Positions 12,244 through 60,500 of a stretch of 64,000 nt of DNA are shown here, one piece after another. A program made the position numbers and the translations under genes. The notes under the pieces were generated by a model. It was given only the letters and a program-made list of their open reading frames with translations, was not told the origin of the DNA and did not search any database. Source of the stretch: Naegleria gruberi (lineage: Eukaryota); assembly GCA_000004985.1 (NCBI GenBank), contig GG738858.1. One strand, written 5' to 3'. Numbering within the stretch: the stretch's first letter is position 1; the number at the start of each line of letters is the position of its first letter.

Positions 12244-14190
12244 TTAGTTCTTTGTTGGAATATTTCTTGCGAATACTGCATATTGTCCATAGACATTAGT
12301 TTTAGTACTATAATGTGGAATATAGAAAGATCTAATGAAAGCTGGAGATTGATTAGTGTCCAAGAATGGAGCACTAGAAATAACTCTCCACTTATCTGAC
12401 TTGGAGTATGTTTCTTCTTGTTGATCTGGAATTTCAAAATCTACAATATAATGACATTTGCTTTCAGGAATATATCTGTCCATTTCTTCACGATTTTCAT
12501 CATTCATAGTTGTTGGAATAGAAGATGTTGGCTCAACCTCTGCAAAATATTTTGGAAGTAAACCAGAGAATCCTGACTTTAAAAATCTAATTCTTACATC
12601 GAACTTATTTGATGATGGTAAAAAGAATGAGGATGGGAATCTATACCATTCCTTACCAACACAAACATTAACTGGAATATTGGTCTTATTCATTGGAGCT
12701 GATTTTTCAAGTGTTAAAAGTTCTGCATGGAGATCAGCATAAACCTTGAGAGGTGCTTGGAAATTTCTAACATTAGCAATTGATCTTGAGAGACCAAGAA
12801 CTACAATGGCAATTACAATGAGAATGGCCAAAAGTAAAGAAATAGTTGATCTTTTAACACCAACAGCACCCATCTTGTGGTCATCAATACGTTGGAGAGG
12901 TTCATCATTGTAATCACGGAGAACTGCAAGTGTAACATCAGCAGCACCACCCTTGAAAATAAGCATGTCAATAATTCTCAAAAACATTTCAATTGTAATT
13001 GATGAAGCCAAACAAATGATTGGGTAAATGACATACATGAATCTTTCTTCCTTGTGTGGCAATGAAGAGAAGAAAGTGAACCAAATGTAAAATGGAGAAA
13101 TGAAAATAATAGATCTATAGTGAATGTACCATCTTTGAGGAGCTCCTAAATAAGCAGTTTGTAATTTAGATGGAAGAGATGAATGCCAACTGTTGGTAAT
13201 AAAATAGTGCAAAAGAGCAATAATTGGTGTAGCTAAAGCAAAGAGGAAAGCAACATTGAAATTCAAAATCAAATTCTTAAAGTAAAAATTCCAAGGTTCA
13301 ACTCCAAACCTTTCACTTCCTTCACCCTTATTGTACAAAACAAGATTGAGTGGAGTAAAGAATAATCTCTTATAATAGTAGAAGTCAACAGCAATGGTAG
13401 CAGCAATAATTACAACACTGATTTGAATAGCAAACTTTAAAGTTCTCCAAAATCCAAATTTGTGAATAGTATCAATAGCAACTGGTAATCCACAAACAAC
13501 ACTGAATGGCCATCCAATAATTACTGAAGATCCAATAAACAAAACACAGAAGAAATATTTAACATATCTTTCACCATCTGTTGTAGCAAGAGAGTACCAA
13601 CTTCCGAAAGCAAACATAATCATATACATTGAGAATGTAGATGGTAAATAGGAAGCTGATGAAATGAAAATACCAGGAGATGCCAACATGGTGACAATTG
13701 TCAACAATGTAATTCTACTTCCGAATCTTTCATAAATTCCCTTTGTGAAAATAGTTTGAGAAAAGGCACAAACAAATGCAAGTCCAATACGAATAGCATA
13801 AAAAACATCAATTGAAGAAGTAAATCCTAACAACATTGCAATTTTTCCTAAAGCTGCATGTCCTAAAATATAAATATATGAACGGAGAGCAAATACTGGA
13901 CTAAATTCCCAAGTTTGCAATCCCTTTCCAAATAATATTAAATGTGTAGGTTCCCAATAATTAAAAGTTTCATCACAATCACTGATCGGCATTAAATAAG
14001 CTGCTAATAAATCAGTCAACAAGTAACAAAAGAAAATATAATTTAAAGCCTTCAAAGGTAATCTATATTCATCGACAGCACTTTCCGTCAGAGAAACATT
14101 TGGTGTTGGTCTCAAGTGAATACCACCAGCATTGGCATTCAAAGTAGGAGCAGATGAGGTTTTGGCGCTTCCTGATGATTTCTTGCCCAT
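12244..14190 (-). CDS. ALG9: ALG9 alpha-1,2-mannosyltransferase (GT22 family), single exon, 648 aa
   Basis: PISDCDETFNYWEPTH, VNVCVGKEWYRFPSSF and KCHY blocks match human/yeast ALG9 almost residue for residue; multipass TM profile. Confidence 0.9.
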   Translation of the reverse strand: MGKKSSGSAKTSSAPTLNANAGGIHLRPTPNVSLTESAVDEYRLPLKALNYIFFCYLLTDLLAAYLMPISDCDETFNYWEPTHLILFGKGLQTWEFSPVFALRSYIYILGHAALGKIAMLLGFTSSIDVFYAIRIGLAFVCAFSQTIFTKGIYERFGSRITLLTIVTMLASPGIFISSASYLPSTFSMYMIMFAFGSWYSLATTDGERYVKYFFCVLFIGSSVIIGWPFSVVCGLPVAIDTIHKFGFWRTLKFAIQISVVIIAATIAVDFYYYKRLFFTPLNLVLYNKGEGSERFGVEPWNFYFKNLILNFNVAFLFALATPIIALLHYFITNSWHSSLPSKLQTAYLGAPQRWYIHYRSIIFISPFYIWFTFFSSLPHKEERFMYVIYPIICLASSITIEMFLRIIDMLIFKGGAADVTLAVLRDYNDEPLQRIDDHKMGAVGVKRSTISLLLAILIVIAIVVLGLSRSIANVRNFQAPLKVYADLHAELLTLEKSAPMNKTNIPVNVCVGKEWYRFPSSFFLPSSNKFDVRIRFLKSGFSGLLPKYFAEVEPTSSIPTTMNDENREEMDRYIPESKCHYIVDFEIPDQQEETYSKSDKWRVISSAPFLDTNQSPAFIRSFYIPHYSTKTNVYGQYAVFARNIPTKN

Positions 14191-15772: not shown

Positions 15773-16189
15773 AGAGAAATTACAGTGGTTCCTATGTAAT
15801 GGTATCTATGGAAAGTTAATTTAATCAGGTCGTAGAACAGATTCTTAAATGCCTTATTTTACATCTGTTTTAAACCATCACAACCTGAAAAAAGATAATG
15901 TATTGGAGTGTATCCAACAAGTCCTAAACAGCCGTTATCGTGCTCAGTCAATTAGTCCACAACATTAGAAAGGTAATTTGTCTTGTTCTTTTTTTCTCAA
16001 GTCAATTACCATTTTCTTGGTGTTGAAAAATGATCAGTTGTGAGTCAATTTTTCCCTAATGATACCTAACCTTGTCCACATCATTCAATTTTTGCTGTGT
16101 TCCCACATAAAAGTGTGCTTAACATTTCTGTAATTTTGCCTTTTCGTTTGACAGCCACTAGAAAAAACGTAATCATAATATTAAAAAAT

Positions 16190-17698
16190 ATGTCACTTGC
16201 CAACCGAGAGAAAAGCAAAAGCTTTAATGTAGGTGACTACATGATAGTTTATGAAGAAGTGATGAAAAACAATCTCGCGAGGGAATGTTTCAGAGATTAT
16301 CTTCAAAATGTGGCATGTAGTGATGAGTCCATTCTTTTTCTAGACGAATACGAAAGATACAAACAGGAATATTCTCGTGTATTCGATATGATACTAAACC
16401 AACCTAATCTATCCGAAATTGACCATCACTGTGGAGAAATATACGATATGGCTGAAGGTTTAATGTACAAATTTATAAAACCAGAAAGTGAAAAGGAATT
16501 AAACGTAGGAAAACCCAAGATTGATTTATGGAAACGATGGAAAGATGAAATTTCATCATGTTCAATTCTAGAGTTTGAATCTTTTCACAAAGTTTTTCAT
16601 GATTTGGATCCAAATTTATTATTTCACGATATTGTAACAAGTGTCAACTTGGATTTACGAATTGATCAATTTCCAAGATTTTCACGATCTCCACAAATTT
16701 ACACTCTATTAGAAAAACAAGGAGAAACATTTACTAGAGCTATAGCTGTTGATATTTCACGAGGTTATCATGTGGATTTTAGATTTAAACCAAAAGATTT
16801 GGTAACTAATTTGATTTTTGATAGAGATTTGTATTTTGCATTTTCATTGATGGAAGATTCGCCTGATTGGCAAACTATTGAAAATAGCAAAAAGACACAA
16901 GCTCAATTTTACTATTCGAAAACACCCTATGTATTCGAAGATCAGAAACATAAGGGAATGCACATGTGTAAGGTGGTGTGTAATTTTGATTATCCCCTTG
17001 AAGATGTTTGGAAAGTTCTGAGACATGTCATTTCATTGGACGAACCTGGACGAACAGTTTCGAATATTAGACAACTAGGCTATATACCACCAAATTCTGA
17101 AAGAAAACCTCAAATGAATGTTGACGAATCAGCAGATCCATCAGAATACAATACACTAGGCCTCACCTTCTCAACATGTGAATTAGATTTCAAAGTTCCT
17201 GGCATGAAGAAGAGAGATATTCCACACACTCATACCACAATCTACGACCAAGCACTGCAGGGCTACGTGAACGTTGGACACACATCTTTCTTCAATGGAT
17301 ACGAAACACCAAAAGATTGTGTCCATGCAGATCTCTTCATTTTTTACTATGTCTGTAAGATTAGTCCATATCGTACTCGTTTCACACACATTGTATATTC
17401 TGATGGACATTTACCTGCAGCCATCAACAAGATTGTAACAATAACCATGTGGAAAAAGAGAGCTCTCTATTTTGAAAAGATATTTAACAAGATACTGAAA
17501 GATTTCACAGATAATGGATCAAGATTAATACGAGAGGGAGAATTGACTGATTGTTTTGGCCTTGATAAAAGTGCAAGAGATAATTTACAGGCATTCCCTA
17601 ATAGATCTTGGTATGAAGAGTATTTAAAGATGTTGCATACGAAAAATCCAAGTCCACGACTGAGTACCACATCCTCTTCAAAGTCATCAACTAAATAA
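16190..17698 (+). CDS. RGS-like domain protein (N-terminal RGS-like helix bundle, followed by a possible START/Bet-v1-like lipid-binding fold), single exon from ATG 16190
   Basis: VGDYMIVYEEVMKNNLARECFRDYLQNVACSDESILFLDEYERYKQEY resembles the RGS N-terminal half; ORF 16097..17698 has its first ATG at 16190 in an A-rich context. Function is tentative. Confidence 0.45.
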   Translation: MSLANREKSKSFNVGDYMIVYEEVMKNNLARECFRDYLQNVACSDESILFLDEYERYKQEYSRVFDMILNQPNLSEIDHHCGEIYDMAEGLMYKFIKPESEKELNVGKPKIDLWKRWKDEISSCSILEFESFHKVFHDLDPNLLFHDIVTSVNLDLRIDQFPRFSRSPQIYTLLEKQGETFTRAIAVDISRGYHVDFRFKPKDLVTNLIFDRDLYFAFSLMEDSPDWQTIENSKKTQAQFYYSKTPYVFEDQKHKGMHMCKVVCNFDYPLEDVWKVLRHVISLDEPGRTVSNIRQLGYIPPNSERKPQMNVDESADPSEYNTLGLTFSTCELDFKVPGMKKRDIPHTHTTIYDQALQGYVNVGHTSFFNGYETPKDCVHADLFIFYYVCKISPYRTRFTHIVYSDGHLPAAINKIVTITMWKKRALYFEKIFNKILKDFTDNGSRLIREGELTDCFGLDKSARDNLQAFPNRSWYEEYLKMLHTKNPSPRLSTTSSSKSSTK

Positions 17699-22949: not shown

Positions 22950-24536
22950 CTAGTTGTCAGAGTTATGTGCAACTTTTTTGAGATATTTCTCTAGTCGTTT
23001 GGTTTTCTTTTCAGTCATATTGTTCCCAAACAATGATAAATATTCCAGTTTTTTCATTCCTAACAAGTGTTGAATACAATCATCAGTCAGATCATTAGAT
23101 TGTAAGTCTAGATACTTCAAATTTGGCAACCCACTAATCCATTTGATTGCGTTATCGTCTAGACCACAGAAATTCATTTCTAGATAGGTCAAATTGATCA
23201 AATTCTTGTGCCAATATTTAAAACCTTCAACACTTTCAACTAGGTCAGTAAGTGACAAATGAAGACTGGTTAGTTGTTTCATTAAGCCAAGTTGTTTTAG
23301 CACTTCACTACAACAACCAACACATTCTGAAATATCCAATATAGTTAACCTTGGTAATTTTGAAATTGATTTTACCCCTTTAACAGATATTTGTCCACCA
23401 CTAATATTTAGATATGTCAACTCCTTTAAAGAGCTTATTGAGTCTAAAAAATCATCACAAATTTCATTTCCATCAATAAAAAGAGTTGTCAGTTTTGTAA
23501 GAGATGTCAAATATTTTGCTCCACTACTGGTGATTTCATGTTGAGAAATATTTAAATATGTAAGTTGTGTAAGGGAGGCAACTAGTTTAGCTGCCTCATC
23601 ACCAAGTGCATCAATAATTGAATGGTTGCCAATATCAAGTACTCTCAAATTCTTCATAGAGCTAATCCACTTAAGTCCTTCATTTCCAAAATCATTCTTT
23701 GATATATAAAGTTCTGTCAGGTTTATCATTTTAGTAAGGCTTTCGCAGGATTCACTTTCAATCCAAATTCTGTTAATATGGAGGGTTTGCAATGATTCCA
23801 TAGAAGAAATAGGCAGCAAACCTAATGGTCCTAAATCATTATTTCCAATATCTAAAAATGTTAATGATTTTAATCTACTAATAATGTCAGCATCTTCAAA
23901 AGTCAAATTACAGTTATTCACATCCAAACTTGTCAACTTTTTCAAAGAACTTAAATGTTCTACATCTTGGTTCTCCAAATGCACTGATGAAATATTTAAA
24001 CTTGTTAAATTTTCAATCATTCCAATATATTTCACACCATTAGCGCATTTAGTCTTACTAACATTCAATACAGTCAAATGTTTCAAAGATTTCAAACACT
24101 TGACACCTTCCCTGTAACAATTTTGTCCACTCAAATCTAATTCTCGTAAATTATAAAATCGTTTCTGAATAATTGTAAAAATCAAAAGATTATATTTTAA
24201 GTGCAAACATTCTACCCGATCAATATATTTCTGATGACTTTGAGAGAGTTTCTTCCATTCTCTCCTTTCACTAATCCGAAAATTAAATTTAATTCTCGTC
24301 ATAATAATGTCAAACCACTGTCGGCAAACTAGTATACAATTTGTTAGTACTTGAACTGAATCTAAATATGTGATCACCTCAAAAGTCATATCACTGGAGA
24401 GAAAATCAATATTATATTCTAGTTCTTCTTTTGAATCTGAAATGTATTGTTGATCAAGGAGCAATTTTAGATGGTTTTGGTTTTTGATTTTCTTAAGCTT
24501 GGAAATGATGGAATCAAAGGTGCGTTTTCGTTTCAT
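22950..24536 (-). CDS. F-box / leucine-rich-repeat (RI-type LRR) protein, single exon
   Basis: F-box MTFEVITYLDSVQVLTNCILVCRQWFDII is followed by ~14 LRRs (L.xL.L..N.I...G). The ORF extends to 24629 but its first ATG is at 24536. Confidence 0.7.
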   Translation of the reverse strand: MKRKRTFDSIISKLKKIKNQNHLKLLLDQQYISDSKEELEYNIDFLSSDMTFEVITYLDSVQVLTNCILVCRQWFDIIMTRIKFNFRISERREWKKLSQSHQKYIDRVECLHLKYNLLIFTIIQKRFYNLRELDLSGQNCYREGVKCLKSLKHLTVLNVSKTKCANGVKYIGMIENLTSLNISSVHLENQDVEHLSSLKKLTSLDVNNCNLTFEDADIISRLKSLTFLDIGNNDLGPLGLLPISSMESLQTLHINRIWIESESCESLTKMINLTELYISKNDFGNEGLKWISSMKNLRVLDIGNHSIIDALGDEAAKLVASLTQLTYLNISQHEITSSGAKYLTSLTKLTTLFIDGNEICDDFLDSISSLKELTYLNISGGQISVKGVKSISKLPRLTILDISECVGCCSEVLKQLGLMKQLTSLHLSLTDLVESVEGFKYWHKNLINLTYLEMNFCGLDDNAIKWISGLPNLKYLDLQSNDLTDDCIQHLLGMKKLEYLSLFGNNMTEKKTKRLEKYLKKVAHNSDN

Positions 24537-24934
24537 TTTTTTTATTAAGATCAAAAAGATTAAGATGATCTTGAAATTTTTTGAGTAACTTTCTATTGAA
24601 TTGAGGATGCTATTCAAACTAATGACCAATCTCTTAAGTATTGAATTGATCTTGTCAGCTGTGGAAATTTTCTTGAAAATTCATCAAGTTTACAAAAGCT
24701 GTTAATACAATTTCTCTGTCGTTTCTCAATTCTTCATTAAATTCAAGTGCTAAAAATCCATCCCTTTCTGCAATTAGTTTTACAATTATTTTCACTTTCC
24801 AAAAATTCAACGGTATGTCATCTAAATCCTCATCTGAACAGAAAAGTGTTTAATTAAATAGGTATATATAAGCATCTTCTTTACAATTATTCGAATCAAA
24901 ACCCTGGACTCTATCTTCAAACATCAATATAAGA

Positions 24935-25173
24935 ATATGTACTTTTATATACGTCTCTTGGCGAATTGGTATTAGTAGTTACAGTCCCATTTTTTTGGCG
25001 GGTAATTTTTTGGGACAGATACTGAAAGCCCTCGCCTTAATTTTGTATTTTTCATGCTCATAATTATTTCTTTCGCGTCCAATCTGTGACATTCGTTCCA
25101 TACATGGACAAATGTATCAATATCTTGTTCCTGTTTGCATTTGAAAAACAGAGACGTATATAAAAGTACATAT
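24935..25173. mobile_element. Putative non-autonomous DNA transposon (MITE-like). 24-bp perfect terminal inverted repeats ATATGTACTTTTATATACGTCTCT (24935..24958) and AGAGACGTATATAAAAGTACATAT (25150..25173); possible TA target-site duplication if the TIR is taken as TGTAC...; 239 bp with no coding capacity
   Basis: Found directly by reverse-complementing the intergenic sequence. Each arm contains TATATAAAAG. The right arm ends 8 bp before the cyclase ATG at 25182. Confidence 0.4.
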
Positions 25174-25181
25174 CAAAAAAA

Positions 25182-27678
25182 ATGCAAGTTCAACCTGTAC
25201 CAGAAGAATCCGTTAGTTTATTAGAAAGCACACCAAAAAGAAGGAAAGGAGGTTGCATACCTCTACATGCATTTGTCATGATAACAATTTCTGTTTTGAT
25301 TTTGAGTGGTTGTCTTTTAGTTTGGCTTTCGTCTTTCATTGTTTCATCCTATTCGATTCAGAATTTGAATACGAATTTGATAGACGAATCTGCACAAAAG
25401 ATTAGTAGAACACTTGAAGGTTTTTTGAGTCCAGTTGGAAAGGTAATGTTGATGATTCGACTAGTTTATCTTAGTTTCTAACTGTTTATTCGAACAATTA
25501 GATAACGAGAATGATGGCTCGTGACTGGAATAAGGGAGTCGTCACAGTTTCGAATATGAGAGACTATTTACATCCAATCATTGTAGAGTTTGGCTTCACC
25601 TCAGCTGGTTTCTTTTTCAACGATACCTATTCGTATAGATATGCTTTTTCTGTTCAGGGAACTGTTAGTTCATTATTTTGGGGTAAGTTTAACTTTCGTA
25701 CGATTTATTAATGACCTTTCGAATAGTTTATGTAAGACAAGATTATGGTCAAGTAATTTCTTACAGAGATAAAGTCAATATCACCACAGGAGACGTAATC
25801 GTTCCAAACTTTATCAAAGTTGTTCCTCAAGTAGTTAACACTTTCGACTATTGGCTATTTATGGTAAACTATACCAGAGACACTGGAAGCGAAGGCGCAT
25901 TTGGCGATCCTTCTTTTGCAGCTGGTTCTGGATTTGCTCTGACCTACACTCAATGGGTCTATGATCAATTTCTCTGGAAAAACCAAACGAAAAAGAGATT
26001 TATTGGTCTAGCCAAAATCAACCTGTCACTTGACTATATAGTTCAGTATCTTTCGAGTAATATTGATTTGATTGGTGATGGTTATGTGGTTGTTACATTG
26101 AATAGTGGAATTGTAATTGGTGGTTCAATTAATACAACTGTGAATGATGGAACGACAGTTGCGAATATTTTTGACATTGAGACAAGAAAAGCGGGAAAAA
26201 CAATTAAGAAATTTTACGAAATGAATGGAAATACCTTTAAAAACTTTTCGTCGAAAAGTTTGACAGTAGAAAGTGAAGGAGTGAAATATATTGTTTCACC
26301 ATTCAAGTTTAGGTATGAAAATTTGGAGTGGAACATTTTCTTTGTTTTATACGAATCTGATGTCAATGCCCCAATGGTAATGAGTTCTTCCATAAGTGTT
26401 GGAATGACAGTTCTAATTATCATTGTCGGTTTAGTGGCAAGTTTATTGACTGGTTGGTTAGTGGCAAGTCCAATGAGATTCTTAGAGAAACAATTCGAAT
26501 TCATACGAGTCATGAAATTAGAAAATGTCAACATGACAAAATCATCCCCATTCAGAGAATTTCATTCCATTTACGGTAATTTAAATGATACAGTCATGTG
26601 GCTTAATGAAATTAAGGCTTTCATTCCAGAACATGTCTTTGCTCAGCTTAATCAAAGTGAGGAAATTTCACTTCCACCTCCAAAAGAAACCAAAAAGCAT
26701 GCAAAGAAAGAAACCGAATTTGAAGATATGAATGCAAGACAGTCACGTTCAAATTTGGGTTCAAGTCAAGTTTTAAGTTCAGGAAGTGCCGTTAGCCACT
26801 TAGCAAGAAATTCATCATTCAAATCTCCTTCCATTTTCAAGACTGGTTACTTAAAGAAGGGATGTGCCTTTGTACATGTCAAGTTGGAAGGTCTTTCCAA
26901 TAAGGATACTAATTTCATTTCTTCCTTTTTTGAGAAATTCATGTCCTCAGTGGGTCCAATTATTAAGGTACAGCAGGCAAATATTCAGTTTATTACATGT
27001 GATGAATTTGAATTCTCCATTACATCAAAGTATGTGGAGGGCAAACTACTGGAGAAGACAATCGAATGTTGTAATAAGATTGTAAAGACCATTGATCCAA
27101 ATGATAGAATTCAGGCAAGAATTGGAATTTGCTGTGGAATGGCTGAAGTTGGTAATATAGGGACCAAAACAGCAAGATTCTACTCTGTCCATGGTGATGT
27201 TCCAAATTGTGCCCGTTACTATTCTGATCTTGCATGTCAATACAATGTCAATATGATAACAGATGACAAGAATTTACCATTGGACAACTTTATCACAAGA
27301 CCACTTGATAGAATTCAAATTCCTTCAAATGTAGTATTAACTATTTATCAAATAATTGCTAAGAAAAATCAGGAAAATGACGAGTGGCTTTATGAATTGG
27401 AAAATAATAAGCTCAATGACAAGTACAATGAATATTCCAACATATTCAAATTATTCAGTATCAGTGATGATAATTATGATGTAGCTCCTCTCATTAATAG
27501 TGCGAAGGAAATACTGGATCAATACAAACTCAAAGGTTTGGACGAAAGTGATCTTTCCTTTTCCAATTTGAGAAACTTGTTGCATGTATTGAGCCAATCA
27601 CCAAAGCAGGAAGCTCTTTCAATACTACAATCTTATTCGAACACACTTGTGAAGGAAATGAAATCAAATAAATTATAA
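25182..27678 (+). CDS. Receptor-type class-III nucleotidyl (adenylyl/guanylyl) cyclase: TM1, a ~330-aa extracellular sensor domain (Cache-like?), TM2, a HAMP-like linker, then a cyclase homology domain. Exons 25182..25442, 25502..25682, 25727..27678
   Basis: CHD motifs GCAFVHVKLEGLS ... IQFITCDEFEF ... ARIGICCGMAEVGNIGTKTARFYSVHGDVPNCARYYS (compare ariGihtG.v..G.iG..r..y.v.GdtVN.AsR). Two TM helices (ITISVLILSGCLLVWLSSFIV, MTVLIIIVGLVASLLTGWLVA). Introns have GTAATG/GTAAGT donors with consistent phases. Confidence 0.7.
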
Positions 27679-27788: not shown

Positions 27789-29654
27789 ATGAAAAGAAAG
27801 CAATTCGATGATGAGAAACTACCCACCAGCAAGAAATTAAAAGAATGCCCACAAATAACAAGCAGTGCTGTTTCTTGTGTACTTGATGAAAGTTTCGGAT
27901 CAAATTTTCTCCACATTAAATTTACTTTAACCAGAAAATCAATAATCAAGTGGAAAACAAATATTCCCTCTGATTTTATTCCTATTGAATATTATTTTGA
28001 TAAAGAATTTGTTATGGAGGTGGTAAAGAAGGATGGATATGAACTCAGGTGTGCTTCACATGAATTGACAAATGACAGACAAGTTGTTTTGGAGGCAGTC
28101 AAGAATAATGTAAATGCTATTTGGTTTGCATCTGCAAATTTGAAAAATGACAAGGAGTTTATAAAACTTGTGCTGGAAAAAGAAATTAATCATGAGGAAT
28201 TCATATATGGATCAGTACTCGCTTGTTTGTCGAATGAATTAAGAAATGACAGAGAAATTGTTTTACAAGCAGTAAAACAACATGCGTTTGCATTGGAATT
28301 TGCCTCACGAACATTACAGAATGATTACAATCTTGTTTTGAAAGCAGTTCAACTCCATGGAAGTTCACTCACAAAAGCTTCTTTAGAGTTGAAAAACAAC
28401 AGAACAATAGTATTGGAAGCAATCAAAAGAAATGGATCAGCATTCAGATATGCCTCAAAGAAATTGAGAAATGACAGACAAGTTATTTTGGAGGCAATCA
28501 AGACCTATGATCAAACACTTTACTTTACCTCAGAAGAACTGCAGAATAATAAGGAATTTATTTTAGAAGCAGTGAAAATGAATGGCTGGATACTTAAATG
28601 TACATCAAGTGAATTGAAAAATGATGAGGAAGTTGTATTGGAAGCAGTAAGACGAAACAGACAATCACTAAAGTTTGCTTCTGGAAAATTGCAGCAAGAT
28701 ACTGATTTCGTTTTGAAAGCTATTACGCAAAATACAGAGGCACACCAACTTGACTTGGACGGTGATGCAATAATTATTGAACGACAGCATATTTTGGATG
28801 CTATTAAGAAACAAGACGGAACTGTTATTCAAACAATACCAAGTCCATTTCAAAACGACAAGGAAATTGTAATGGAAGCAGTTAAACAAAATGGGTTAGC
28901 GCTAAAATATGCCTCACATGAGCTTCAGAATGATACTGAAATAGTTTTGGAAGCTGTTAAAAGAAATAATTATGCTCTCAAATATGCCTCAATGGAATTG
29001 AGAAATAACAAACAAGTTGTCTTGGAAGCAGTTAAAAGTCACTCAAACGCGCTCAAATATGCCTCAGAAGAGCTGCAGAATGATAAGGAAATAGTTCTAG
29101 AAGCAGTTAAACAAAGTGGATATACACTCAAATATGCCTCCACCGAACTACAACACGATAAGGAATTAGTTTTAATAGCGATTCAACAGTATGGAATTAT
29201 TTGCCCAGAGGAGTTTAGTAATGATAGGGAATTTCTTTTGCAAGCTGCTAAACCAAATGGACGTTCTGTAATGGAATTTGTTTCGAATGAATTAAGAAAA
29301 GATCAACAATTTATTTTGGAGCTGGTTAAACGAAATGTATTAGAAACTCATTATCTTCCAAATGAATTTAGACATGACATGAAACTTATGTCTGAGATAG
29401 TTAGACACAATGGAGTAGCATTGAAATACAGTTCAGAAGAATTGACAATTGAAGAAAAATATATTTTGGAAGAAGAAGCAATTTTACAAAATGGATTTTG
29501 TTTGGATTTTAGTTTTGAAAAATTTTGTAAAAGGATCACACGAGAATATCCTGAATTATACTTGCCAAATTACAAGTTTAAACATTTGGGTGTTGATTTT
29601 CATGTATTGAATGCGCCATTTAGCGTTCCTAATGTAGCAAAGTTGTTCTATTAG
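27789..29654 (+). CDS. DUF4116-type tandem-repeat protein (~16 copies of a ~35-aa unit VLEAVKQNGxALKYASxELxNDKEIVLEAV), single exon
   Basis: Highly regular repeat periodicity in the 621-aa ORF; the assignment to DUF4116 is from memory. Confidence 0.55.
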   Translation: MKRKQFDDEKLPTSKKLKECPQITSSAVSCVLDESFGSNFLHIKFTLTRKSIIKWKTNIPSDFIPIEYYFDKEFVMEVVKKDGYELRCASHELTNDRQVVLEAVKNNVNAIWFASANLKNDKEFIKLVLEKEINHEEFIYGSVLACLSNELRNDREIVLQAVKQHAFALEFASRTLQNDYNLVLKAVQLHGSSLTKASLELKNNRTIVLEAIKRNGSAFRYASKKLRNDRQVILEAIKTYDQTLYFTSEELQNNKEFILEAVKMNGWILKCTSSELKNDEEVVLEAVRRNRQSLKFASGKLQQDTDFVLKAITQNTEAHQLDLDGDAIIIERQHILDAIKKQDGTVIQTIPSPFQNDKEIVMEAVKQNGLALKYASHELQNDTEIVLEAVKRNNYALKYASMELRNNKQVVLEAVKSHSNALKYASEELQNDKEIVLEAVKQSGYTLKYASTELQHDKELVLIAIQQYGIICPEEFSNDREFLLQAAKPNGRSVMEFVSNELRKDQQFILELVKRNVLETHYLPNEFRHDMKLMSEIVRHNGVALKYSSEELTIEEKYILEEEAILQNGFCLDFSFEKFCKRITREYPELYLPNYKFKHLGVDFHVLNAPFSVPNVAKLFY

Positions 29655-31103: not shown

Positions 31104-33365
<2,262 letters not shown>

Positions 33366-49184: not shown

Positions 49185-51617
49185 ATGAAAGCCAACTTGA
49201 GTGTGATCAAGTTATCGGATGATTCACTCCAAACATCTACTCATCCACTTTCTAATATATTTAATGATAATGACACTAAATTCGAAACAAGTATATCCTG
49301 TAAACATGTTTATATTTATTTAAATATTAATGATGATAACTTTAAAATTGATAAAATTATTGTCAAGAATAATGGAGCCAATGTAATTGAAGTTTTCGGA
49401 TTGGAGAAAGGATCGTTTGATGATAGTAATGGATCATGTATTCTACCATCAAGTTCCATGTTAAAATTTCATGAAACAAAAAGTAGGACCAAACTTAATG
49501 AACTTTATGTTTTCGATAAGAAACAATTGAATCGTGCAGCTCTTGTGAGACAAGATGAAAAAGATTTTAAAGGATGGAAGAAACTTTCTGTTAAAATTAC
49601 ACAAACATTTGGTGATTATCCTTTCGGATTGCAATACTTTGCCCTTGAGAGTGAATCATCATCATCAGCAAAAACAGATGAATCGAACAAAATGTCTGAT
49701 GAATGTTCTACACCATTAATTATAAGAGGATCCACTTTGGATATTCCTTTCCTTTCCGATGATGATGAACCTATGATAAGTGGACAAGATCAATTAGAGG
49801 AAGCTAGAAAAATGGCAAAAACCAAATTGACCTTATCACCAGCATTGAATATTACTCCAGATCTTGGATCTTCTTCTTCAACACCTTCCAAACCTAAGAA
49901 AAGAACCTTACCAAGTGGTATTGCTGCTAAACCTCAAAAGACTCAAAAGAAGAATGATTTAAGTGATGACAGTGAAAAATCAGATAAGGAAACTAAAAAG
50001 AAAACTAAAAAGCCAGCAGCCAAGACAGACAAAAAACGACCAAAATTTAAATCTATTAGTGACGATGATGACGATAAGGCATCTGCCAGTGATAGCTCAT
50101 CTAAAAAGAAAAAGACAACTAAGAAAGCTGATGCTAAAAAGCCAACCAAAAGAAAAACAACCAAAAAGAAAAAGACATTGGACGATCCATCAGATACAGA
50201 CGATGAAGAAGAATTAATTGATAATGCAAGTGATGCTGATGAAAATGGAAATTTGGCAGGTTTTGTTGTCAGTAACAAAACAGTCATCAAAGATAATAAG
50301 AAACTTCAGGATGGTCCAGTTTGTACAAATAAGACTGATGTTTTACAAGGATGTATTATAGCTATTAGTGGTATTCAGAATCCAAAGAGAACAGAAATTA
50401 GAGAGGCTGCCATGGCTATTGGTGCAAAATATAGACCTCAATATACAGCTGACACTACTCACTTAATTGCTGCCTTTGTTGATGATAGAAATGAAAAGAG
50501 TAAGCAAGCAAAGAAAGCTGGTGCATTCATTGTAAATGCAGAATGGGTTTTTGATTGTGAAAAGAATTCCAGGAGAATGAATGAAAGTAAATATTCTATG
50601 CTGAAGGATGAAAGTGAAGACGAGATTGAAGGTTCTGATGAGGAATATCAATTATCTTCTTCAAGTGATGATCTATTGGGAGATGGTGAGGATAGAGAAT
50701 ATCGTCCAAAAAGAAAAAAGAGAAAGGTAGTAGAAAAGAAGACCAGATCTGTGAAAAAGGAAAGTGACGACGAAACTAATGATGATGGAAACGAAAGCGA
50801 TAAATCGCTAGGAAAAAGTAATAGCCAAAGTTTAGCTCCACCTCCAATTGTAAAATCAGAAAAGAAGGAAAATAGTCAAGTTAAATCCGAAGTAAATTCT
50901 GATGAACAGCAGGTAGTGGCTGATATTCCAATTAAGGTTGAAGAACTCAAAGTTAAGGAAGAAGAGAGCAAACCAATAGCTCAAGACTGTGCCATGGAAG
51001 ATGATATTCTTTCCTCGTCTGATGAACAAGAAGTTTTAAGATTGAAGAGTTTTTATGACAGTGGAAATTATTCGAAATCTTTTTCTGATTTTATTGTTGA
51101 GGATATATTTGCCTTAGCTTACCAAACAGCACAGGATGGAGAGCTTTTTGACTACTTTGACAAGTGGTCACTTAAAACACCAAGTCCAAAGTTTATTAGA
51201 ATGATTGCAAGATCATCCGTTGAAGGTCCAGAGGAAGTAGTCAAACAGTTGGATGAATGCAGAGATAATATTTTAAAATATATTGAGGTCAACTTTGCCT
51301 CTAAAAAACCTAAAACAGATGTAAAGATTGATGGACCTTCAAAAGCACTTCCATCCTTCTTTGCGGGGTGTGTATTCTTTATTGATAGGGCAGTCAAAGG
51401 CAAACAAGAACTCACAAGGTATATCATTTCTTACGGAGGTGAGATTGCGACCAACTTTGAGGAAAGGAAAAATGATATAACACATGTACTTGTAAGCTCT
51501 GAGTATGAGGGCAATATTGCATATAATGATAAGGTAGTAGTGGACTTTAAATTTGTTTTGCACAGTCATAAGAGACAGAGAAAATTGAATGAGGAAGCTT
51601 ATTCTGCTGATTATTAA
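49185..51617 (+). CDS. XRCC1: XRCC1 ortholog (DNA single-strand-break repair scaffold): XRCC1 N-terminal domain, K-rich linker, BRCT1, acidic linker, BRCT2; single exon, 810 aa
   Basis: BRCT1 GCIIAISGIQNPKRTEIREAAMAIGAKYRPQYTADTTHLIAAF...GAFIVNAEWVFDC matches human GVVVVLSGFQNPFRSELRDKALELGAKYRPDWTRDSTHLICAF...GRIVRKEWVLDC. BRCT2 FFAGCVFFIDRAVKGKQELTRYIISYGGEI matches FFQGKHFFLYGEFPGDERRKLIRYVTAFNGEL. Confidence 0.85.
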   Translation: MKANLSVIKLSDDSLQTSTHPLSNIFNDNDTKFETSISCKHVYIYLNINDDNFKIDKIIVKNNGANVIEVFGLEKGSFDDSNGSCILPSSSMLKFHETKSRTKLNELYVFDKKQLNRAALVRQDEKDFKGWKKLSVKITQTFGDYPFGLQYFALESESSSSAKTDESNKMSDECSTPLIIRGSTLDIPFLSDDDEPMISGQDQLEEARKMAKTKLTLSPALNITPDLGSSSSTPSKPKKRTLPSGIAAKPQKTQKKNDLSDDSEKSDKETKKKTKKPAAKTDKKRPKFKSISDDDDDKASASDSSSKKKKTTKKADAKKPTKRKTTKKKKTLDDPSDTDDEEELIDNASDADENGNLAGFVVSNKTVIKDNKKLQDGPVCTNKTDVLQGCIIAISGIQNPKRTEIREAAMAIGAKYRPQYTADTTHLIAAFVDDRNEKSKQAKKAGAFIVNAEWVFDCEKNSRRMNESKYSMLKDESEDEIEGSDEEYQLSSSSDDLLGDGEDREYRPKRKKRKVVEKKTRSVKKESDDETNDDGNESDKSLGKSNSQSLAPPPIVKSEKKENSQVKSEVNSDEQQVVADIPIKVEELKVKEEESKPIAQDCAMEDDILSSSDEQEVLRLKSFYDSGNYSKSFSDFIVEDIFALAYQTAQDGELFDYFDKWSLKTPSPKFIRMIARSSVEGPEEVVKQLDECRDNILKYIEVNFASKKPKTDVKIDGPSKALPSFFAGCVFFIDRAVKGKQELTRYIISYGGEIATNFEERKNDITHVLVSSEYEGNIAYNDKVVVDFKFVLHSHKRQRKLNEEAYSADY

Positions 51618-57514: not shown

Positions 57515-60500
57515 ATGAGCAATCATCAACAAATAACAACCACAACGACAACCAATTTTACTTTACCACCACTCCCACCTTCATTAATTCCAGCCAGATA
57601 TGAATTTAAAATCACTGGACAATTTCCATCACAATTCAACAATATTCAATCACAATGCTATCATCCATCACAACAAGTTTTAATATTGGGAGGAAGTAAT
57701 GGCAATTTATATTTTGTTGGTGGTGATGCTCATTATTATATTACGTTATCGGATGAATATTCAATTGAAAATATTCAAAATGATGAACAATTTCCGATCA
57801 TTTATTGTCTTTGTAAAAATCATCAAAATTCAAAATCAATTTTAATATCCTATGATTATTTAAAGAAGCAAATTGTCAATCAAGTACATTTTAATGATCA
57901 TCAAAATGTAACAAGTATCAAATATTACAAAGGTTATTTATTAATAACAACAATTGAATTTAAAAATAATATTTATTATCCATATGTAAAGTACATGTCA
58001 ACAAGTAATTTCAAATTTATTCAATCAATCTCGTTATTACATCCAATTTTCAACGCTCCTAATATTATACCACCTTCTAATTTATTAATTAATTGTGTTG
58101 AACCTCATCCGACATATGATCATGTCATTTCAGTTGGTTATTCGAATGGTGAAACTGTTATTTACTATATTTATCATGTGCAGAATACTAACAATAATTC
58201 AATTTCAACAAATCTTAATTGTATTGTTATTCCTTCACAATTTTCAGTAACCAGTTTGAATTGGCATGCTCCGAATATTATAATTTGTGGATATTCAAAT
58301 GGTTCATTTACTTTATACGAAATTAATCATCCTCAATTTACATTTTCTCTCTATTATGAAATGAATATGTTGAAGGGATGTACAAATTTCATAACTTCTT
58401 ACAATCAATTCATCATTTTTGGATTAGGATCAGATACTACAAATGCAGATTCTGGAATATATTATTTGAAAATGAATTATGAAGTAAGAAATATTGAATT
58501 TATTAGACATGTATGGTGTGATCAGAAAAGTATTGAAAATATTACATTGTTAAAATCAGTCTTTGATAATCCAAATTCAAACTCTTTAATGGCTAGTGTG
58601 ATTTATGGAGAAAATAGAAATGTGCTTGTTTTGGATTTATTTGAAAAGATGATTTATCCACAAAAAGAACTTCAATTATTCAATTTGGAAAAGTATTCTG
58701 TACCAACCCCATTCTACTCTACAAAAGATTTGATTTGTAATAATAAGGAATTTATTGTACTGAAAACTTCTGGGATGGATCTCTCAAATTTGGTATATAA
58801 CACTGTTCTTAATAATTTCAATCAAGAACAGTACAGAAGGAATATGCTTGAGTATTATTTAAGACCTGTCAATAGATGGAATATACTTGGCATGAAATAT
58901 ACTCAATACAGAGTCGATATTAATGTCGATAAAGATAATTACATTTTGGTAAAGCTTTCAGATCAAGCTTTAGGTAGTGCAGTCGAGCTGTATTTGTGCA
59001 ATCCATATTTTAACGATATCAGATATATTTATACTATTGGTAATCAAGCAAGTTACAAAACTATGTGCAAATGGAGCGATAGTGTAATTATTTTGGCATC
59101 TATGGATGGAAATTTAGATTTCTTGCATATTCCATCAGCAACTATTTTTACACATGACATTACTGAAAAATCTCCAACTGTAGACAACTCGACTAATATT
59201 TCAGAAGCTCAGGGAAACAACTTCCAAGGCATAATTGCACAAGTGGCCAAGTATAACTTTAACGTTTTAAAATATTCTAATGATAATCCAATTATCCAGC
59301 TAGTTCCTATTCAAGTAATTAATCAACTTTTAATTGCTTACCAAGATGGTACTATTAAGATAGTATCACTCTCTACAAGTGACATTTCATCTGATCAAAT
59401 TATTGAAAATGAGTTTGACAAACATTTTGGAAGTATTATTTTTGAACTCAATCCATCAGACATGAAGAGTTCACATCTCTTTGTAAAATCCATTTTACCA
59501 AAGAAAGATGTAGTTTCACATATTGAATGCTCGATATATAGAGGTAATCTCTATGCTTTCCTTGGTTTTGCCAGTGGGAAGGTAATGCTCATTCAACTGT
59601 ACGATCTAGACTATATGACCAGAAATTATCACAAACTGAGCAAATATATTCATGAGGCAAGATGGAAAGATTTAGCTGATCACATATGTCCATTCGTTAT
59701 TTATGAAAATTCAGCAAACAATTTTGGAAAAGTTATTGATATTTACACTGTTAATGACATTTATAATGAATATAATATTTCTAAAATGGTAGATGAAAAG
59801 TATTTACCACCAATGTTGAGAAGTGAATACGTACCTAATTCAATTATTAACTCTCCAAATGGACCAATTTGTTATACTATTCATAGCACTTCACTGACGA
59901 GTGTATTTGGAACTGTGAAAAATAATATGATTGCCTTCCCAATCAATAGCGCAAGTCCTCTTACCATTTTATTTCAACTCAAGAAAACTCTTCCAATATC
60001 TTTTAATTTTGTTTTGGATATTCTGGATATCAAGTTTGAAACTCTATCAAAGATTGAAGAAATGGCCAACTATAGAATTATTGTCAATGGTGTTCCATTT
60101 GAGTTTGATATCAACTCGAATCATAAACTGGTAGATACAAGGCAAGTGGCTGTTGTTGTAACAGGTGAAGAGTATCGTGTTTATGTCAGAAATGAAACCA
60201 AGTTTGAATGTATTGGATCTGCACCATCAGGTTACAATTGTGTTCAGGATCAGTACATTACAAAGATGAATTTCAAAGTACTTTCACATAGTATCCATGA
60301 CAAAGAGGCCGAGTTTTATGAAAACCAGTTCATGAATAGTAAGATGTACAATTTATGTGATGTGGATTATTTGTGTGAATATATTGATAGTGTGGAAATT
60401 TACAATAATTTATCATTCTCAGATCTTCAAAATTCTAGAATCAAACAACCAAACATTGTTGGATACATTTCCAAAGCGGGAATTCCTCCTCTTGGTCAAT

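What the first reader, a model, noticed from the sequence alone, without database searches (positions are those of the whole stretch)
25182..27678. Sensor-coupled class-III cyclase with a degenerate first metal site (Asp to His)
The architecture (N-terminal TM, large extracellular domain, TM, HAMP-like helix, cyclase homology domain) is bacterial-style receptor wiring.

In the CHD, the beta-1 motif that normally reads F.DI.GFT is FVHVKLEGLS. The first metal-binding Asp is His. The second Asp (TCDEF) and the transition-state N...R (VPNCARY) are kept.

A homodimer of this domain would lack one catalytic metal ligand. It may therefore be a pseudo-cyclase/regulatory partner, need a heterodimeric partner, or use unusual chemistry.
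Basis: inference. Interest (0 to 1): 0.55.

Follow-up and report, generated by a model that had tools for sequence, protein, structure and literature searches.

The report
Naegleria sensor with dead cyclase domain

Summary
The gene is real. It has three exons (25182-25442, 25502-25682, 25727-27678, + strand) and encodes a 797-aa protein identical to an uncharacterised Naegleria gruberi "predicted protein".

The key residue call is off by two. The canonical beta-1 metal Asp aligns with Lys533. His531 sits at the canonical Phe position.

The domain is more degenerate than reported:
- Only Asp573, Arg612 and Asn641 of eight canonical catalytic positions remain.
- The substrate Lys is Phe569.
- The transition-state Arg position is Tyr645 (Arg644 is one residue early).
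- The phosphate Lys is Pro680.

Neither half-site is complete, so the domain cannot complete an active site in a homodimer, nor supply a complete half-site to a partner.

The protein belongs to a large family (1272 cluster representatives at E<=1e-3; named members are all Discoba). In that family the catalytic columns drift, but a D-E-W-[ML]-Y-E-[LM] helix just after the CHD is nearly invariant.

Best reading: a ligand-sensing pseudo-cyclase receptor with a non-catalytic output. This is a new variant of a known kind and of moderate interest.

The parts
25182..25442 (+). Exon 1 (aa 1-87): cytosolic N-terminus, TM1 (aa 28-55, nt 25263-25346) and the start of the long N-terminal dCache helix.
   Evidence: Spliced CDS is in frame. 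100% match to the N. gruberi protein. Hydropathy. AF2 helix 28-98. This exon alone hits the family HMM at E=5.8e-15.
25443..25501 (+). Intron 1 (59 nt, GTAATG...TTAG).
25502..25682 (+). Exon 2 (aa 88-148, first base of codon 148): part of the dCache ectodomain.
   Evidence: This exon alone hits the family HMM at E=1.4e-10.
25683..25726 (+). Intron 2 (44 nt, GTAAGT...ATAG).
25727..27678 (+). Exon 3 (aa 148-797 plus stop): rest of the dCache domain, TM2, HAMP-like segment, linker, CHD and C-terminal tail.
25347..26352 (+). Extracellular double-Cache (dCache_1-like) sensor domain, aa 56-356. It spans both introns.
   Evidence: Family profile against PDB dCache ligand-binding domains: 6iop E=1.9e-10, 6mni 1.7e-9, 9hvj, PctA/B/C. 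Foldseek: Mlp24 TM 0.78, PctA 0.75. 15 of 63 relatives hit Pfam dCache_1. This protein itself does not hit it.
26353..26469 (+). TM2 (aa 357-395).
   Evidence: Hydropathy. AF2 continuous helix 357-408.
26470..26658 (+). HAMP-like two-helix segment (Pro396 ... Glu425) followed by the pre-CHD helix FIPEHVFAQL (aa 446-455).
   Evidence: AF2 helices 357-408, 424-444 and 449-458. P396, E425, L440 and P448 are at least 90% conserved in 63 relatives. Aligns to 'FKYVPAEV' of the canonical relative P0076. No Pfam HAMP hit.
26659..26838 (+). Disordered Ser/Lys-rich insert (aa 459-518) between the pre-CHD helix and beta-1.
   Evidence: pLDDT below 50 over 458-518. The family-wide distance from P448 to G521 has a median of 67 aa, range 40-121, against about 25 aa in canonical P0076.
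26839..27369 (+). Degenerate class III cyclase homology domain (aa 519-695).
   Evidence: Pfam PF00211 scores 20.5 bits, below the gathering score of 21.9, and covers only the C-terminal half. Family profile against CyaB 3r5g: E=2.4e-19 over the whole domain. Foldseek matches to CyaB, Rv1625c, Cya2 and CyaC.
26875..26883 (+). His531-Val532-Lys533. Lys533 occupies the canonical first metal-Asp column and His531 the canonical Phe column.
27001..27003 (+). Asp573, the retained second metal Asp (canonical 'GD').
26989..26991 (+). Phe569 at the canonical substrate-specifying Lys/Glu position.
27205..27219 (+). Asn641 (transition-state Asn, kept) through Arg644 and Tyr645. Tyr645 is at the canonical Arg position and Arg644 is one residue early.
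27322..27324 (+). Pro680 at the canonical phosphate-binding Lys position.
27379..27399 (+). DEWLYEL helix (aa 699-705), the most conserved motif of the family.
   Evidence: W701 92%, E700 88% and Y703 87% conserved in 63 sequences. The motif is near-universal in the 133 domains tabulated (132 family representatives plus the CyaB reference). AF2 helix 701-711.
27370..27675 (+). C-terminal helical domain (aa 696-797): four to five helices, resembling a TPR-like helical repeat.

Best explanation
The gene encodes a type-II-like, two-pass membrane receptor of Naegleria gruberi. It has an extracellular dCache ligand-binding domain, a HAMP-like transducer, a long disordered linker, a catalytically dead cyclase homology domain (a pseudo-cyclase) and a helical C-terminal tail.

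Shown:
- The fold and domain order.
- Only 3 of 8 canonical catalytic residues survive (D573, R612, N641). The first metal Asp is Lys533.
- The protein belongs to a large family whose named members are all Discoba. In that family the catalytic columns are unconstrained, while HAMP residues, the G-N-x-G hairpin, R-P-x-D-R and a D-E-W-x-Y-E-L helix directly after the CHD are strongly conserved.

Inferred:
- The protein does not make cAMP or cGMP.
- The CHD is kept as a dimeric scaffold.
- Ligand binding at the dCache domain is relayed through HAMP to change the conformation or accessibility of the CHD plus DEW-helix plus tail module. That module then signals by protein-protein interaction, possibly including inhibitory pairing with active cyclase paralogues and phosphorylation of the Ser-rich linker, rather than by nucleotide cyclisation.
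For: Gene model and identity.

CHD homology and fold: CyaB E=2.4e-19; TM 0.76.

Residue equivalences from the profile-mediated alignment to CyaB:
- K533 = Asp1
- D573 = Asp2
- R612 = phosphate Arg
- F569 = substrate Lys
- S634 = substrate Thr/Asp
- N641 = Asn
- Y645 = Arg
- P680 = Lys

Family-wide view (133 domains tabulated including the CyaB reference):
- The Asp1 column is K/R in 52 and D in only 7 (one of them CyaB).
- The substrate-Lys column is mostly I/S/V.
- The Asn column is mostly E/S/K.
- The Arg column is mostly K/L/E.
- DEW[ML]YE[LM] is near-universal.
- The only family member with the full DDRKTNRK set (P0076) lacks the DEW motif and has a short linker.

Conservation by region: DEW helix 0.52, HAMP 0.44, CHD 0.37, dCache 0.26.

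dCache domain.

Model confidence: pLDDT 86.3, with disorder confined to residues 1-24 and 458-518.

Family size and taxa.
Against: - No activity assay exists. Inactivity is inferred from residue identities.
- This particular member keeps Asp573, Arg612, Asn641 and a near-position Arg644, so nucleotide binding, or weak Mn-dependent activity, cannot be excluded.
- Residue-level equivalences rest on HMM alignments and secondary structure, not on inspected 3D coordinates. The tools gave no coordinates and no dimer model.
- The downstream partner of the DEW helix and tail is entirely unknown.
- The 60-aa disordered linker makes it unclear how, or whether, the HAMP signal reaches the CHD.
Confidence: 0.72

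Rival explanations
1. Obligate heterodimer subunit. The degenerate CHD pairs with a catalytically competent cyclase paralogue to build one active and one regulatory site, as in mammalian tmAC C1/C2, sGC alpha/beta or chytrid NeoR/RGC.
For: - Heterodimeric class III cyclases with one degenerate site are well established (PMC12264004, read).
- The genome encodes many paralogues. At least 8 N. gruberi lineages of this family were seen.
- The dimer-arm G-x-x-G motif (G623, G626) is invariant or nearly so.
Against: - A productive heterodimer needs each subunit to donate one complete half-site. This protein has neither (K533 in the metal half; F569, Y645 and P680 in the substrate/transition-state half).
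- The closest paralogues are equally degenerate.
- No second CHD lies in the 64-kb window.
- Pairing with an active cyclase would, on these residues, kill both sites. That makes it an inhibitor or decoy rather than a co-catalyst.
Confidence: 0.12
2. Active enzyme with non-canonical chemistry. Lys533 (Lys/Arg in many relatives) replaces metal A, or the domain catalyses a different nucleotidyl-transfer reaction.
For: - A basic residue is the commonest occupant of the Asp1 column (K/R in 52 of the 133 tabulated domains).
- Asp573, Arg612 and Asn641 are retained in this member.
Against: - The Asp1 column also holds T, N, Q, H, E, L and Y.
- Every other catalytic column is unconstrained across the family. 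That is not expected for a conserved alternative mechanism.
- There is no association between K/R at Asp1 and D/E at Asp2 (Fisher p=0.37).
Confidence: 0.06
3. A decaying duplicate (a pseudogene in the making) of a horizontally acquired bacterial-type cyclase, with no function.
For: - Catalytic residues are lost.
- The Pfam score is below threshold.
- The family is highly expanded and divergent.
Against: - The 797-codon spliced ORF is intact, with canonical introns.
- Relatives are present in N. gruberi, N. lovaniensis, Willaertia, Percolomonas, Pharyngomonas and Euglenozoa.
- There is strong positional conservation of HAMP, G-N-x-G, RPxDR and DEWxYEL.
- The AF2 fold is confident.
Confidence: 0.05

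Closest known systems
Bacterial-type dCache/HAMP class IIIb adenylate cyclases. Examples are the metagenomic relative P0076 ('class 3 adenylate cyclase') and the catalytic domain of P. aeruginosa CyaB (PDB 3r5g).
   Same: - Same order of modules: TM, dCache, TM, HAMP, CHD, TPR-like tail.
- 25% identity over the proximal Cache, TM2 and HAMP region (E=1e-18).
- Same CHD fold, including the V-G-N-x-G hairpin.
   Different: - P0076 and CyaB carry the full D, D, R, K, T, N, R, K catalytic set. The window protein keeps 3 of 8.
- The window protein has a roughly 65-aa disordered insert before beta-1.
- It also has the DEWxYEL helix, which the canonical enzymes lack.
Degenerate CHD halves of pseudo-heterodimeric cyclases: mammalian tmAC C1/C2, soluble AC (ADCY10) C2, sGC subunits and chytrid NeoR.
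   Same: - A CHD fold with lost catalytic residues.
- The sAC C2 beta-1 'FVNL' resembles remote family members 'FVNLSGF'.
- The precedent that a dead site can be regulatory (PMC12264004).
   Different: Those subunits each retain one complete complementary half-site and are partnered with the other half. This protein retains neither half, and its paralogues are equally degenerate.
Kinetoplastid receptor-type adenylate cyclases (ESAG4/GRESAG4 family). This comparison rests on my own knowledge and was not tested here.
   Same: They are lineage-expanded families of Discoba surface receptors with an extracellular ligand-binding domain and an intracellular CHD.
   Different: Those have a periplasmic-binding-protein-like ectodomain, a single TM and catalytically active CHDs. 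They have no dCache domain, no HAMP and no DEWxYEL motif.
dCache_1 chemoreceptor ligand-binding domains (V. cholerae Mlp24/Mlp37, P. aeruginosa PctA/B/C).
   Same: Same double-PDC fold with a long N-terminal helix (Foldseek TM up to 0.78; profile E down to 1.9e-10).
   Different: - The output is a pseudo-CHD, not an MCP signalling domain.
- The amino-acid-binding YxxxxRxWY motif (PMC8915833) appears absent. By pattern, Phe187 falls at the Arg position, and the family consensus is Q-D-Y-Y. This alignment was not verified structurally.

Membership tests
Class III nucleotidyl cyclase catalytic domain (CHD, Pfam PF00211) | CHD fold and significant sequence or profile similarity to solved cyclases. 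| tested here: met
   Family profile against CyaB 3r5g: E=2.4e-19 over the full domain. Foldseek prob 1.00, TM 0.76.
Class III nucleotidyl cyclase catalytic domain (CHD, Pfam PF00211) | Score above the Pfam gathering threshold. | tested here: not met
   20.5 bits against a cut-off of 21.9, and only profile positions 94-180 of 183. The isolated domain scores 21.4. 29 of 63 relatives match at E<=0.01.
Class III nucleotidyl cyclase catalytic domain (CHD, Pfam PF00211) | Two metal-binding Asp residues (beta-1 'F.DI.GFT' and beta2-3 'GD'). | tested here: not met
   The first is Lys533. The second, Asp573, is kept.
Class III nucleotidyl cyclase catalytic domain (CHD, Pfam PF00211) | Substrate-specifying pair (Lys or Glu, and Asp, Thr or Cys). 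| tested here: not met
   Phe569 and Ser634.
Class III nucleotidyl cyclase catalytic domain (CHD, Pfam PF00211) | Transition-state Asn and Arg on helix alpha-4 (N-x-A-S-R). | tested here: not met
   Asn641 is kept. The Arg position is Tyr645, and Arg644 is one residue out of register. Neither column is conserved in the family.
Class III nucleotidyl cyclase catalytic domain (CHD, Pfam PF00211) | Phosphate-binding Arg and Lys. | tested here: not met
   Arg612 is kept. The Lys position is Pro680.
Class III nucleotidyl cyclase catalytic domain (CHD, Pfam PF00211) | Cyclase activity (cAMP or cGMP formation). | not testable with these tools
   Needs a biochemical assay.
dCache_1 extracellular sensor | Double PDC/Cache fold between two TM helices, with a long N-terminal helix. 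| tested here: met
dCache_1 extracellular sensor | Pfam PF02743 match. | tested here: not met
   The ectodomain gives no Pfam hit at E<=10. 15 of 63 relatives do hit, with a best E of 4.9e-10.
dCache_1AA (amino-acid sensing subclass) | AA_motif Y121, R126, W128, Y129, Y144, D173 (PctA numbering). | tested here: inconclusive
   By pattern only, residues 187-190 'FDYW' (family Q-D-Y-Y) fall where R-x-W-Y is expected, so the Arg seems absent (motif taken from PMC8915833). No residue-level structural alignment was available.
HAMP domain | Two amphipathic helices joined by a connector directly after the TM helix, with a conserved Pro in AS1 and Glu at the start of AS2. | tested here: met
   AF2 helices 357-408 and 424-444. 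P396 is 92% and E425 98% conserved.
HAMP domain | Pfam PF00672 match. | tested here: not met
   No HAMP hit for this protein or for any of the 63 relatives.
Pseudo-heterodimeric cyclase subunit (tmAC C1/C2, sGC, NeoR type) | Retains one complete half-site (either D, D, R or K/E, D/T/C, N, R, K) to complement a partner. | tested here: not met
   Both halves are incomplete. The paralogues are equally degenerate.

The most novel reading that the evidence does not exclude
The DEWxYEL-bearing proteins are an undescribed family of non-catalytic 'pseudo-cyclase' surface receptors, known so far only from Discoba and from metagenomes. There are hundreds of lineages, many with dCache or other sensor domains.

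In this reading the ancestral bacterial-type adenylate cyclase was converted into a ligand-gated scaffold in three steps:
- The active site decayed.
- A disordered, probably phosphorylatable insert uncoupled HAMP from the CHD.
- A new invariant Trp-containing helix after the last CHD strand, together with the helical tail, became the signalling output through an unknown partner.
Probability: 0.45. Interest if true: 0.65.

Novelty: new variant of a known kind. Interest (0 to 1): 0.48.

Why it matters
- Naegleria and its relatives are credited with very large cyclase repertoires. If a sizeable share are receptor pseudo-cyclases, counts of 'cyclases' overstate cAMP/cGMP-producing capacity. A separate, unstudied environmental-sensing pathway would then exist in Heterolobosea and Euglenozoa, a group that includes the pathogen N. 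fowleri's genus.
- The finding extends the known reach of bacterial-type dCache receptors in eukaryotes. A published survey found Cache in a single Naegleria protein (PMC4822843), whereas this family is mostly invisible to Pfam models.
- It gives a clean natural example of a signalling enzyme domain repurposed after complete active-site loss, marked by a simple motif (DEWxYEL) that can be mutated and used for pull-downs.

Tried and rejected
- **Single-sequence searches.** Pfam and PDB searches aligned only the C-terminal half of the CHD and could not place beta-1. A family profile resolved this.
- **The search for homologous proteins.** The exhaustive HMM search was what revealed the family.
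- **Salt-bridge idea.** I tested whether Lys/Arg at the Asp1 position pairs with the retained acidic Asp2. There is no association across the 132 family domains compared (Fisher p=0.37), so the idea was dropped.
- **Partner CHD in the window.** tblastn with this CHD, with CyaB and with the canonical P0076 CHD, plus a family-HMM scan of the six-frame translation, found only this gene.
- **afdb50 fold search.** It was unavailable.
- **Dimer modelling.** Dimer models and inspection of metal-site geometry were not possible, because the tools give no coordinates and no multimer option.
- **Literature.** Searches found no description of this family or motif.
Full report
**What is at the coordinates.** The window is eukaryotic, about 33% GC. 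The interval 25182-27678 (+) is one gene with three exons: 25182-25442, 25502-25682 and 25727-27678. They are separated by two short GT..AG introns of 59 and 44 nt. The spliced CDS is 2394 nt and encodes 797 aa. It is 100% identical over its full length to an NCBI/UniProt 'predicted protein' of Naegleria gruberi. Each exon on its own matches the family HMM (E=5.8e-15, 1.4e-10 and 4.5e-190).

**Architecture.**
- Hydropathy gives two TM segments, at aa 28-55 and about 368-395.
- An AlphaFold2 model built on a 63-sequence family alignment is confident: mean pLDDT 86.3, with disorder only at residues 1-24 and 458-518.
- The model shows a long N-terminal helix running into an alpha/beta ectodomain (aa 56-356). 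TM2 continues into a two-helix HAMP-like unit (357-408 and 424-444), followed by a short helix (449-458).
- Next comes a 60-aa disordered Ser/Lys-rich insert, then an alpha/beta domain (520-693) and a helical tail (701-783).
- The family profile hits bacterial chemoreceptor dCache ligand-binding domains (6iop E=1.9e-10, 6mni 1.7e-9, 9hvj, PctA/B/C) with its N-terminal part. It hits class III cyclases with its C-terminal part (CyaB 3r5g E=2.4e-19 over the whole domain; also ADCY10, Cya2, OaPAC/bPAC, RhGC and Rv1625c).
- Foldseek of the model against the PDB gives the same two sets: CyaB TM 0.76, Mlp24 TM 0.78, all with probability 1.00.
- 'Bacterial-style receptor wiring' is therefore confirmed and made specific: TM, dCache, TM, HAMP-like, CHD.
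- The protein itself is almost invisible to Pfam. PF00211 scores 20.5 bits against a gathering score of 21.9, and only for the C-terminal half. There is no dCache hit and no HAMP hit.

**The metal site.** The register of the first one is wrong.
- In the profile alignment to CyaB, family consensus 'tvlyiklsnf' pairs with CyaB 'TVFFSDIRGF'.
- Threading both sequences through the same HMM gives KKGCAFVHVKLEGLS over RKKLTVFFSDIRGFT.
- So Gly536-Leu-Ser equals the canonical G-F-T, Lys533 occupies the metal-Asp column and His531 occupies the conserved Phe column.
- Independent support comes from remote family members that still read like canonical beta-1 (YVDIENF, FVDTDRL, FVNLSGF). They place their D or N in the Lys533 column.
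- The His531 column is simply variable across the family: Y, H, T, S, R and others.
- No Asp is restored, so the first metal site is indeed degenerate. The change is Asp to Lys, not Asp to His.

**The rest of the active site** (codons checked).
- Kept: Asp573 (second metal Asp), Arg612 (phosphate Arg) and Asn641 (transition-state Asn).
- Lost: the substrate-specifying Lys/Glu is Phe569, its partner Asp/Thr is Ser634, and the phosphate Lys is Pro680.
- The transition-state Arg column holds Tyr645. Arg644 sits one residue earlier on the helix (N-C-A-R-Y against N-L-A-S-R).
- Three of eight canonical positions survive.
- In class III cyclases each active site is built from the metal half (D, D, R) of one subunit and the substrate/transition-state half (K, D/T, N, R, K) of the other. 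This is established knowledge of the family and is restated in PMC12264004. Here both halves are incomplete.
- The domain therefore cannot form an active homodimer. Unlike tmAC C1/C2, sGC or NeoR, it also cannot donate a complete half to a partner.
- No other CHD lies in the window.

**The family.** An exhaustive HMM search of 1.84 billion cluster representatives found 1272 relatives at E<=1e-3, 291 at E<=1e-10 and 68 at E<=1e-30. About 50 of them share the full-length architecture.
- Named members come from N. gruberi (at least eight paralogue lineages), N. lovaniensis, Willaertia magna, Percolomonas and Pharyngomonas. These are all Heterolobosea.
- Further named members come from Entosiphon and Papus (Euglenozoa), and one from a transcriptome labelled 'Hpha', which I take to be the diplonemid Hemistasia. 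Others are from metagenomes. All are uncharacterised.
- I tabulated the eight catalytic columns over 133 domains, which include the CyaB reference.
- The Asp1 column is K/R in 52 and D in 7. Asp2 is D in 48. The substrate Lys column is mostly I/S/V. The Asn column is mostly E/S/K. The Arg column is mostly K/L/E.
- The catalytic columns are therefore unconstrained.
- What is conserved is a different set. It comprises the HAMP residues P396 and E425, and P448 in the pre-CHD helix. It also includes G521, the hairpin G623-N-x-G626 (G623 is invariant) and R672-P-x-D-R676.
- Above all, the set includes a helix immediately after the last CHD strand reading D-E-W-[ML]-Y-E-[LM] (aa 699-705). W701 is 92% conserved and the motif is present in nearly every family member.
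- Mean per-column conservation is highest in the DEW helix (0.52) and HAMP (0.44). It is lower in the CHD (0.37) and lowest in the dCache domain (0.26), as expected if ligand specificities diversify.

**A canonical relative shows what changed.** One hit, metagenomic P0076 ('class 3 adenylate cyclase'), shares the proximal Cache, TM2 and HAMP region (25% identity, E=1e-18). It has the complete D, D, R, K, T, N, R, K set.
- In P0076, 'FKYVPAEVV' is followed after about 25 residues by beta-1 'IAIMFTDIVQFT'. The protein ends in a TPR-like helical tail and has no DEW motif.
- In the window protein the matching 'FIPEHVFAQL' is followed by the disordered insert. The family median from P448 to G521 is 67 aa, range 40-121.
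- The family thus looks derived from bacterial-type dCache-HAMP cyclases by three changes: loss of the catalytic residues, insertion of a flexible linker in front of the CHD, and gain of the DEWxYEL helix.

**How it most likely works.**
- Shown: the fold, the topology, which residues sit at the catalytic positions, and the conservation pattern.
- Inferred: the protein is a ligand-sensing pseudo-cyclase. The dCache domain binds an extracellular small molecule. It is probably not an amino acid, since the YxxxxRxWY motif of dCache_1AA (PMC8915833) seems to be F-D-Y-W here. That is a pattern-level call only.
- HAMP transduces the signal. The CHD is retained as a dimeric scaffold. Its conserved surface elements, with the DEW helix and tail, engage an unknown partner.
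- The Ser-rich linker is a plausible regulatory or phosphorylation region.
- Inhibitory pairing with active cyclase paralogues is a compatible sub-mechanism.
- I put about 0.72 on 'catalytically inactive receptor with non-catalytic output'. I put about 0.12 on productive heterodimer catalysis, about 0.06 on unusual chemistry and about 0.05 on a functionless decaying copy.
- The idea that Lys/Arg at the Asp1 position forms a compensating salt bridge with Asp2 found no covariation support (p=0.37).

**Comparison with what is known, and novelty.** Degenerate CHDs are well known: tmAC, sAC C2, sGC, NeoR, and the non-catalytic second domains noted in Halocafeteria (PMC5447177).
- Receptor-type cyclase expansions in Discoba are also known from kinetoplastids (my own knowledge).
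- I found no description of a Discoba-wide family of fully degenerate, sensor-coupled CHDs marked by DEWxYEL. Absence from the searchable library is not proof of absence from the literature.
- I rate the finding a new variant of a known kind, with interest about 0.48.
The underlying observation of a degenerate metal site in a sensor-coupled CHD is right, and it understates the case.

Noticed in passing
window 24935-24958 and 25150-25173: A perfect 24-nt inverted repeat (ATATGTACTTTTATATACGTCTCT / AGAGACGTATATAAAAGTACATAT) with 191 nt between the arms. The right arm ends 8 nt before the ATG of the pseudo-cyclase gene, in the intergenic region shared with the divergent LRR gene. It is the only pair in the window, with 0 expected by chance. 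It could be a MITE-like insertion or a promoter or 5'-UTR hairpin.
   Followed up: partly
window 27789-29654 (+): The immediately downstream ORF (621 aa) is made of 13 DUF4116 repeats (Pfam E=2e-153). Its function is unknown.
   Followed up: partly
window 22950-24629 (-): The divergently oriented upstream ORF (559 aa) is a leucine-rich-repeat protein, hitting LRR_14, LRR_4, LRR_8 and Zer-1-like LRR.
   Followed up: partly
window 57515-61570 (+): A 1351-aa ORF whose only Pfam match is a C-terminal synaptobrevin (R-SNARE) domain at aa 1290-1345. That is an unusually long N-terminal extension for an R-SNARE.
   Followed up: no
window 16097-17698 (+); 49185-51617 (+); 31104-33359 (-); 12244-14190 (-): Other neighbours identified by Pfam: an RGS-domain protein; an XRCC1_N plus two-BRCT protein; a DEAH-box helicase (HA2/OB); and an ALG9-like GT22 mannosyltransferase. 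They are ordinary eukaryotic genes with no evident link to the cyclase-like gene.
   Followed up: no
paralogue P0002 (N. gruberi, 755 aa), alignment A1 columns 622-662: The annotated model of the closest paralogue lacks about 46 residues in the middle of the CHD (from the IGxxxG hairpin to helix alpha-4). This is probably a mis-called intron in the public annotation rather than a real deletion.
   Followed up: no
family members P0049, P0081, P0085 and others (metagenomic, 1150-1270 aa): A sub-branch annotated 'ankyrin repeat protein/class 3 adenylate cyclase' has a long, different N-terminal region in place of the dCache domain. It carries a variant motif D-[AND]-W-x-N-E-[LM]. The degenerate CHD plus Trp-helix module therefore appears to be combined with more than one kind of N-terminal region.
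   Followed up: no
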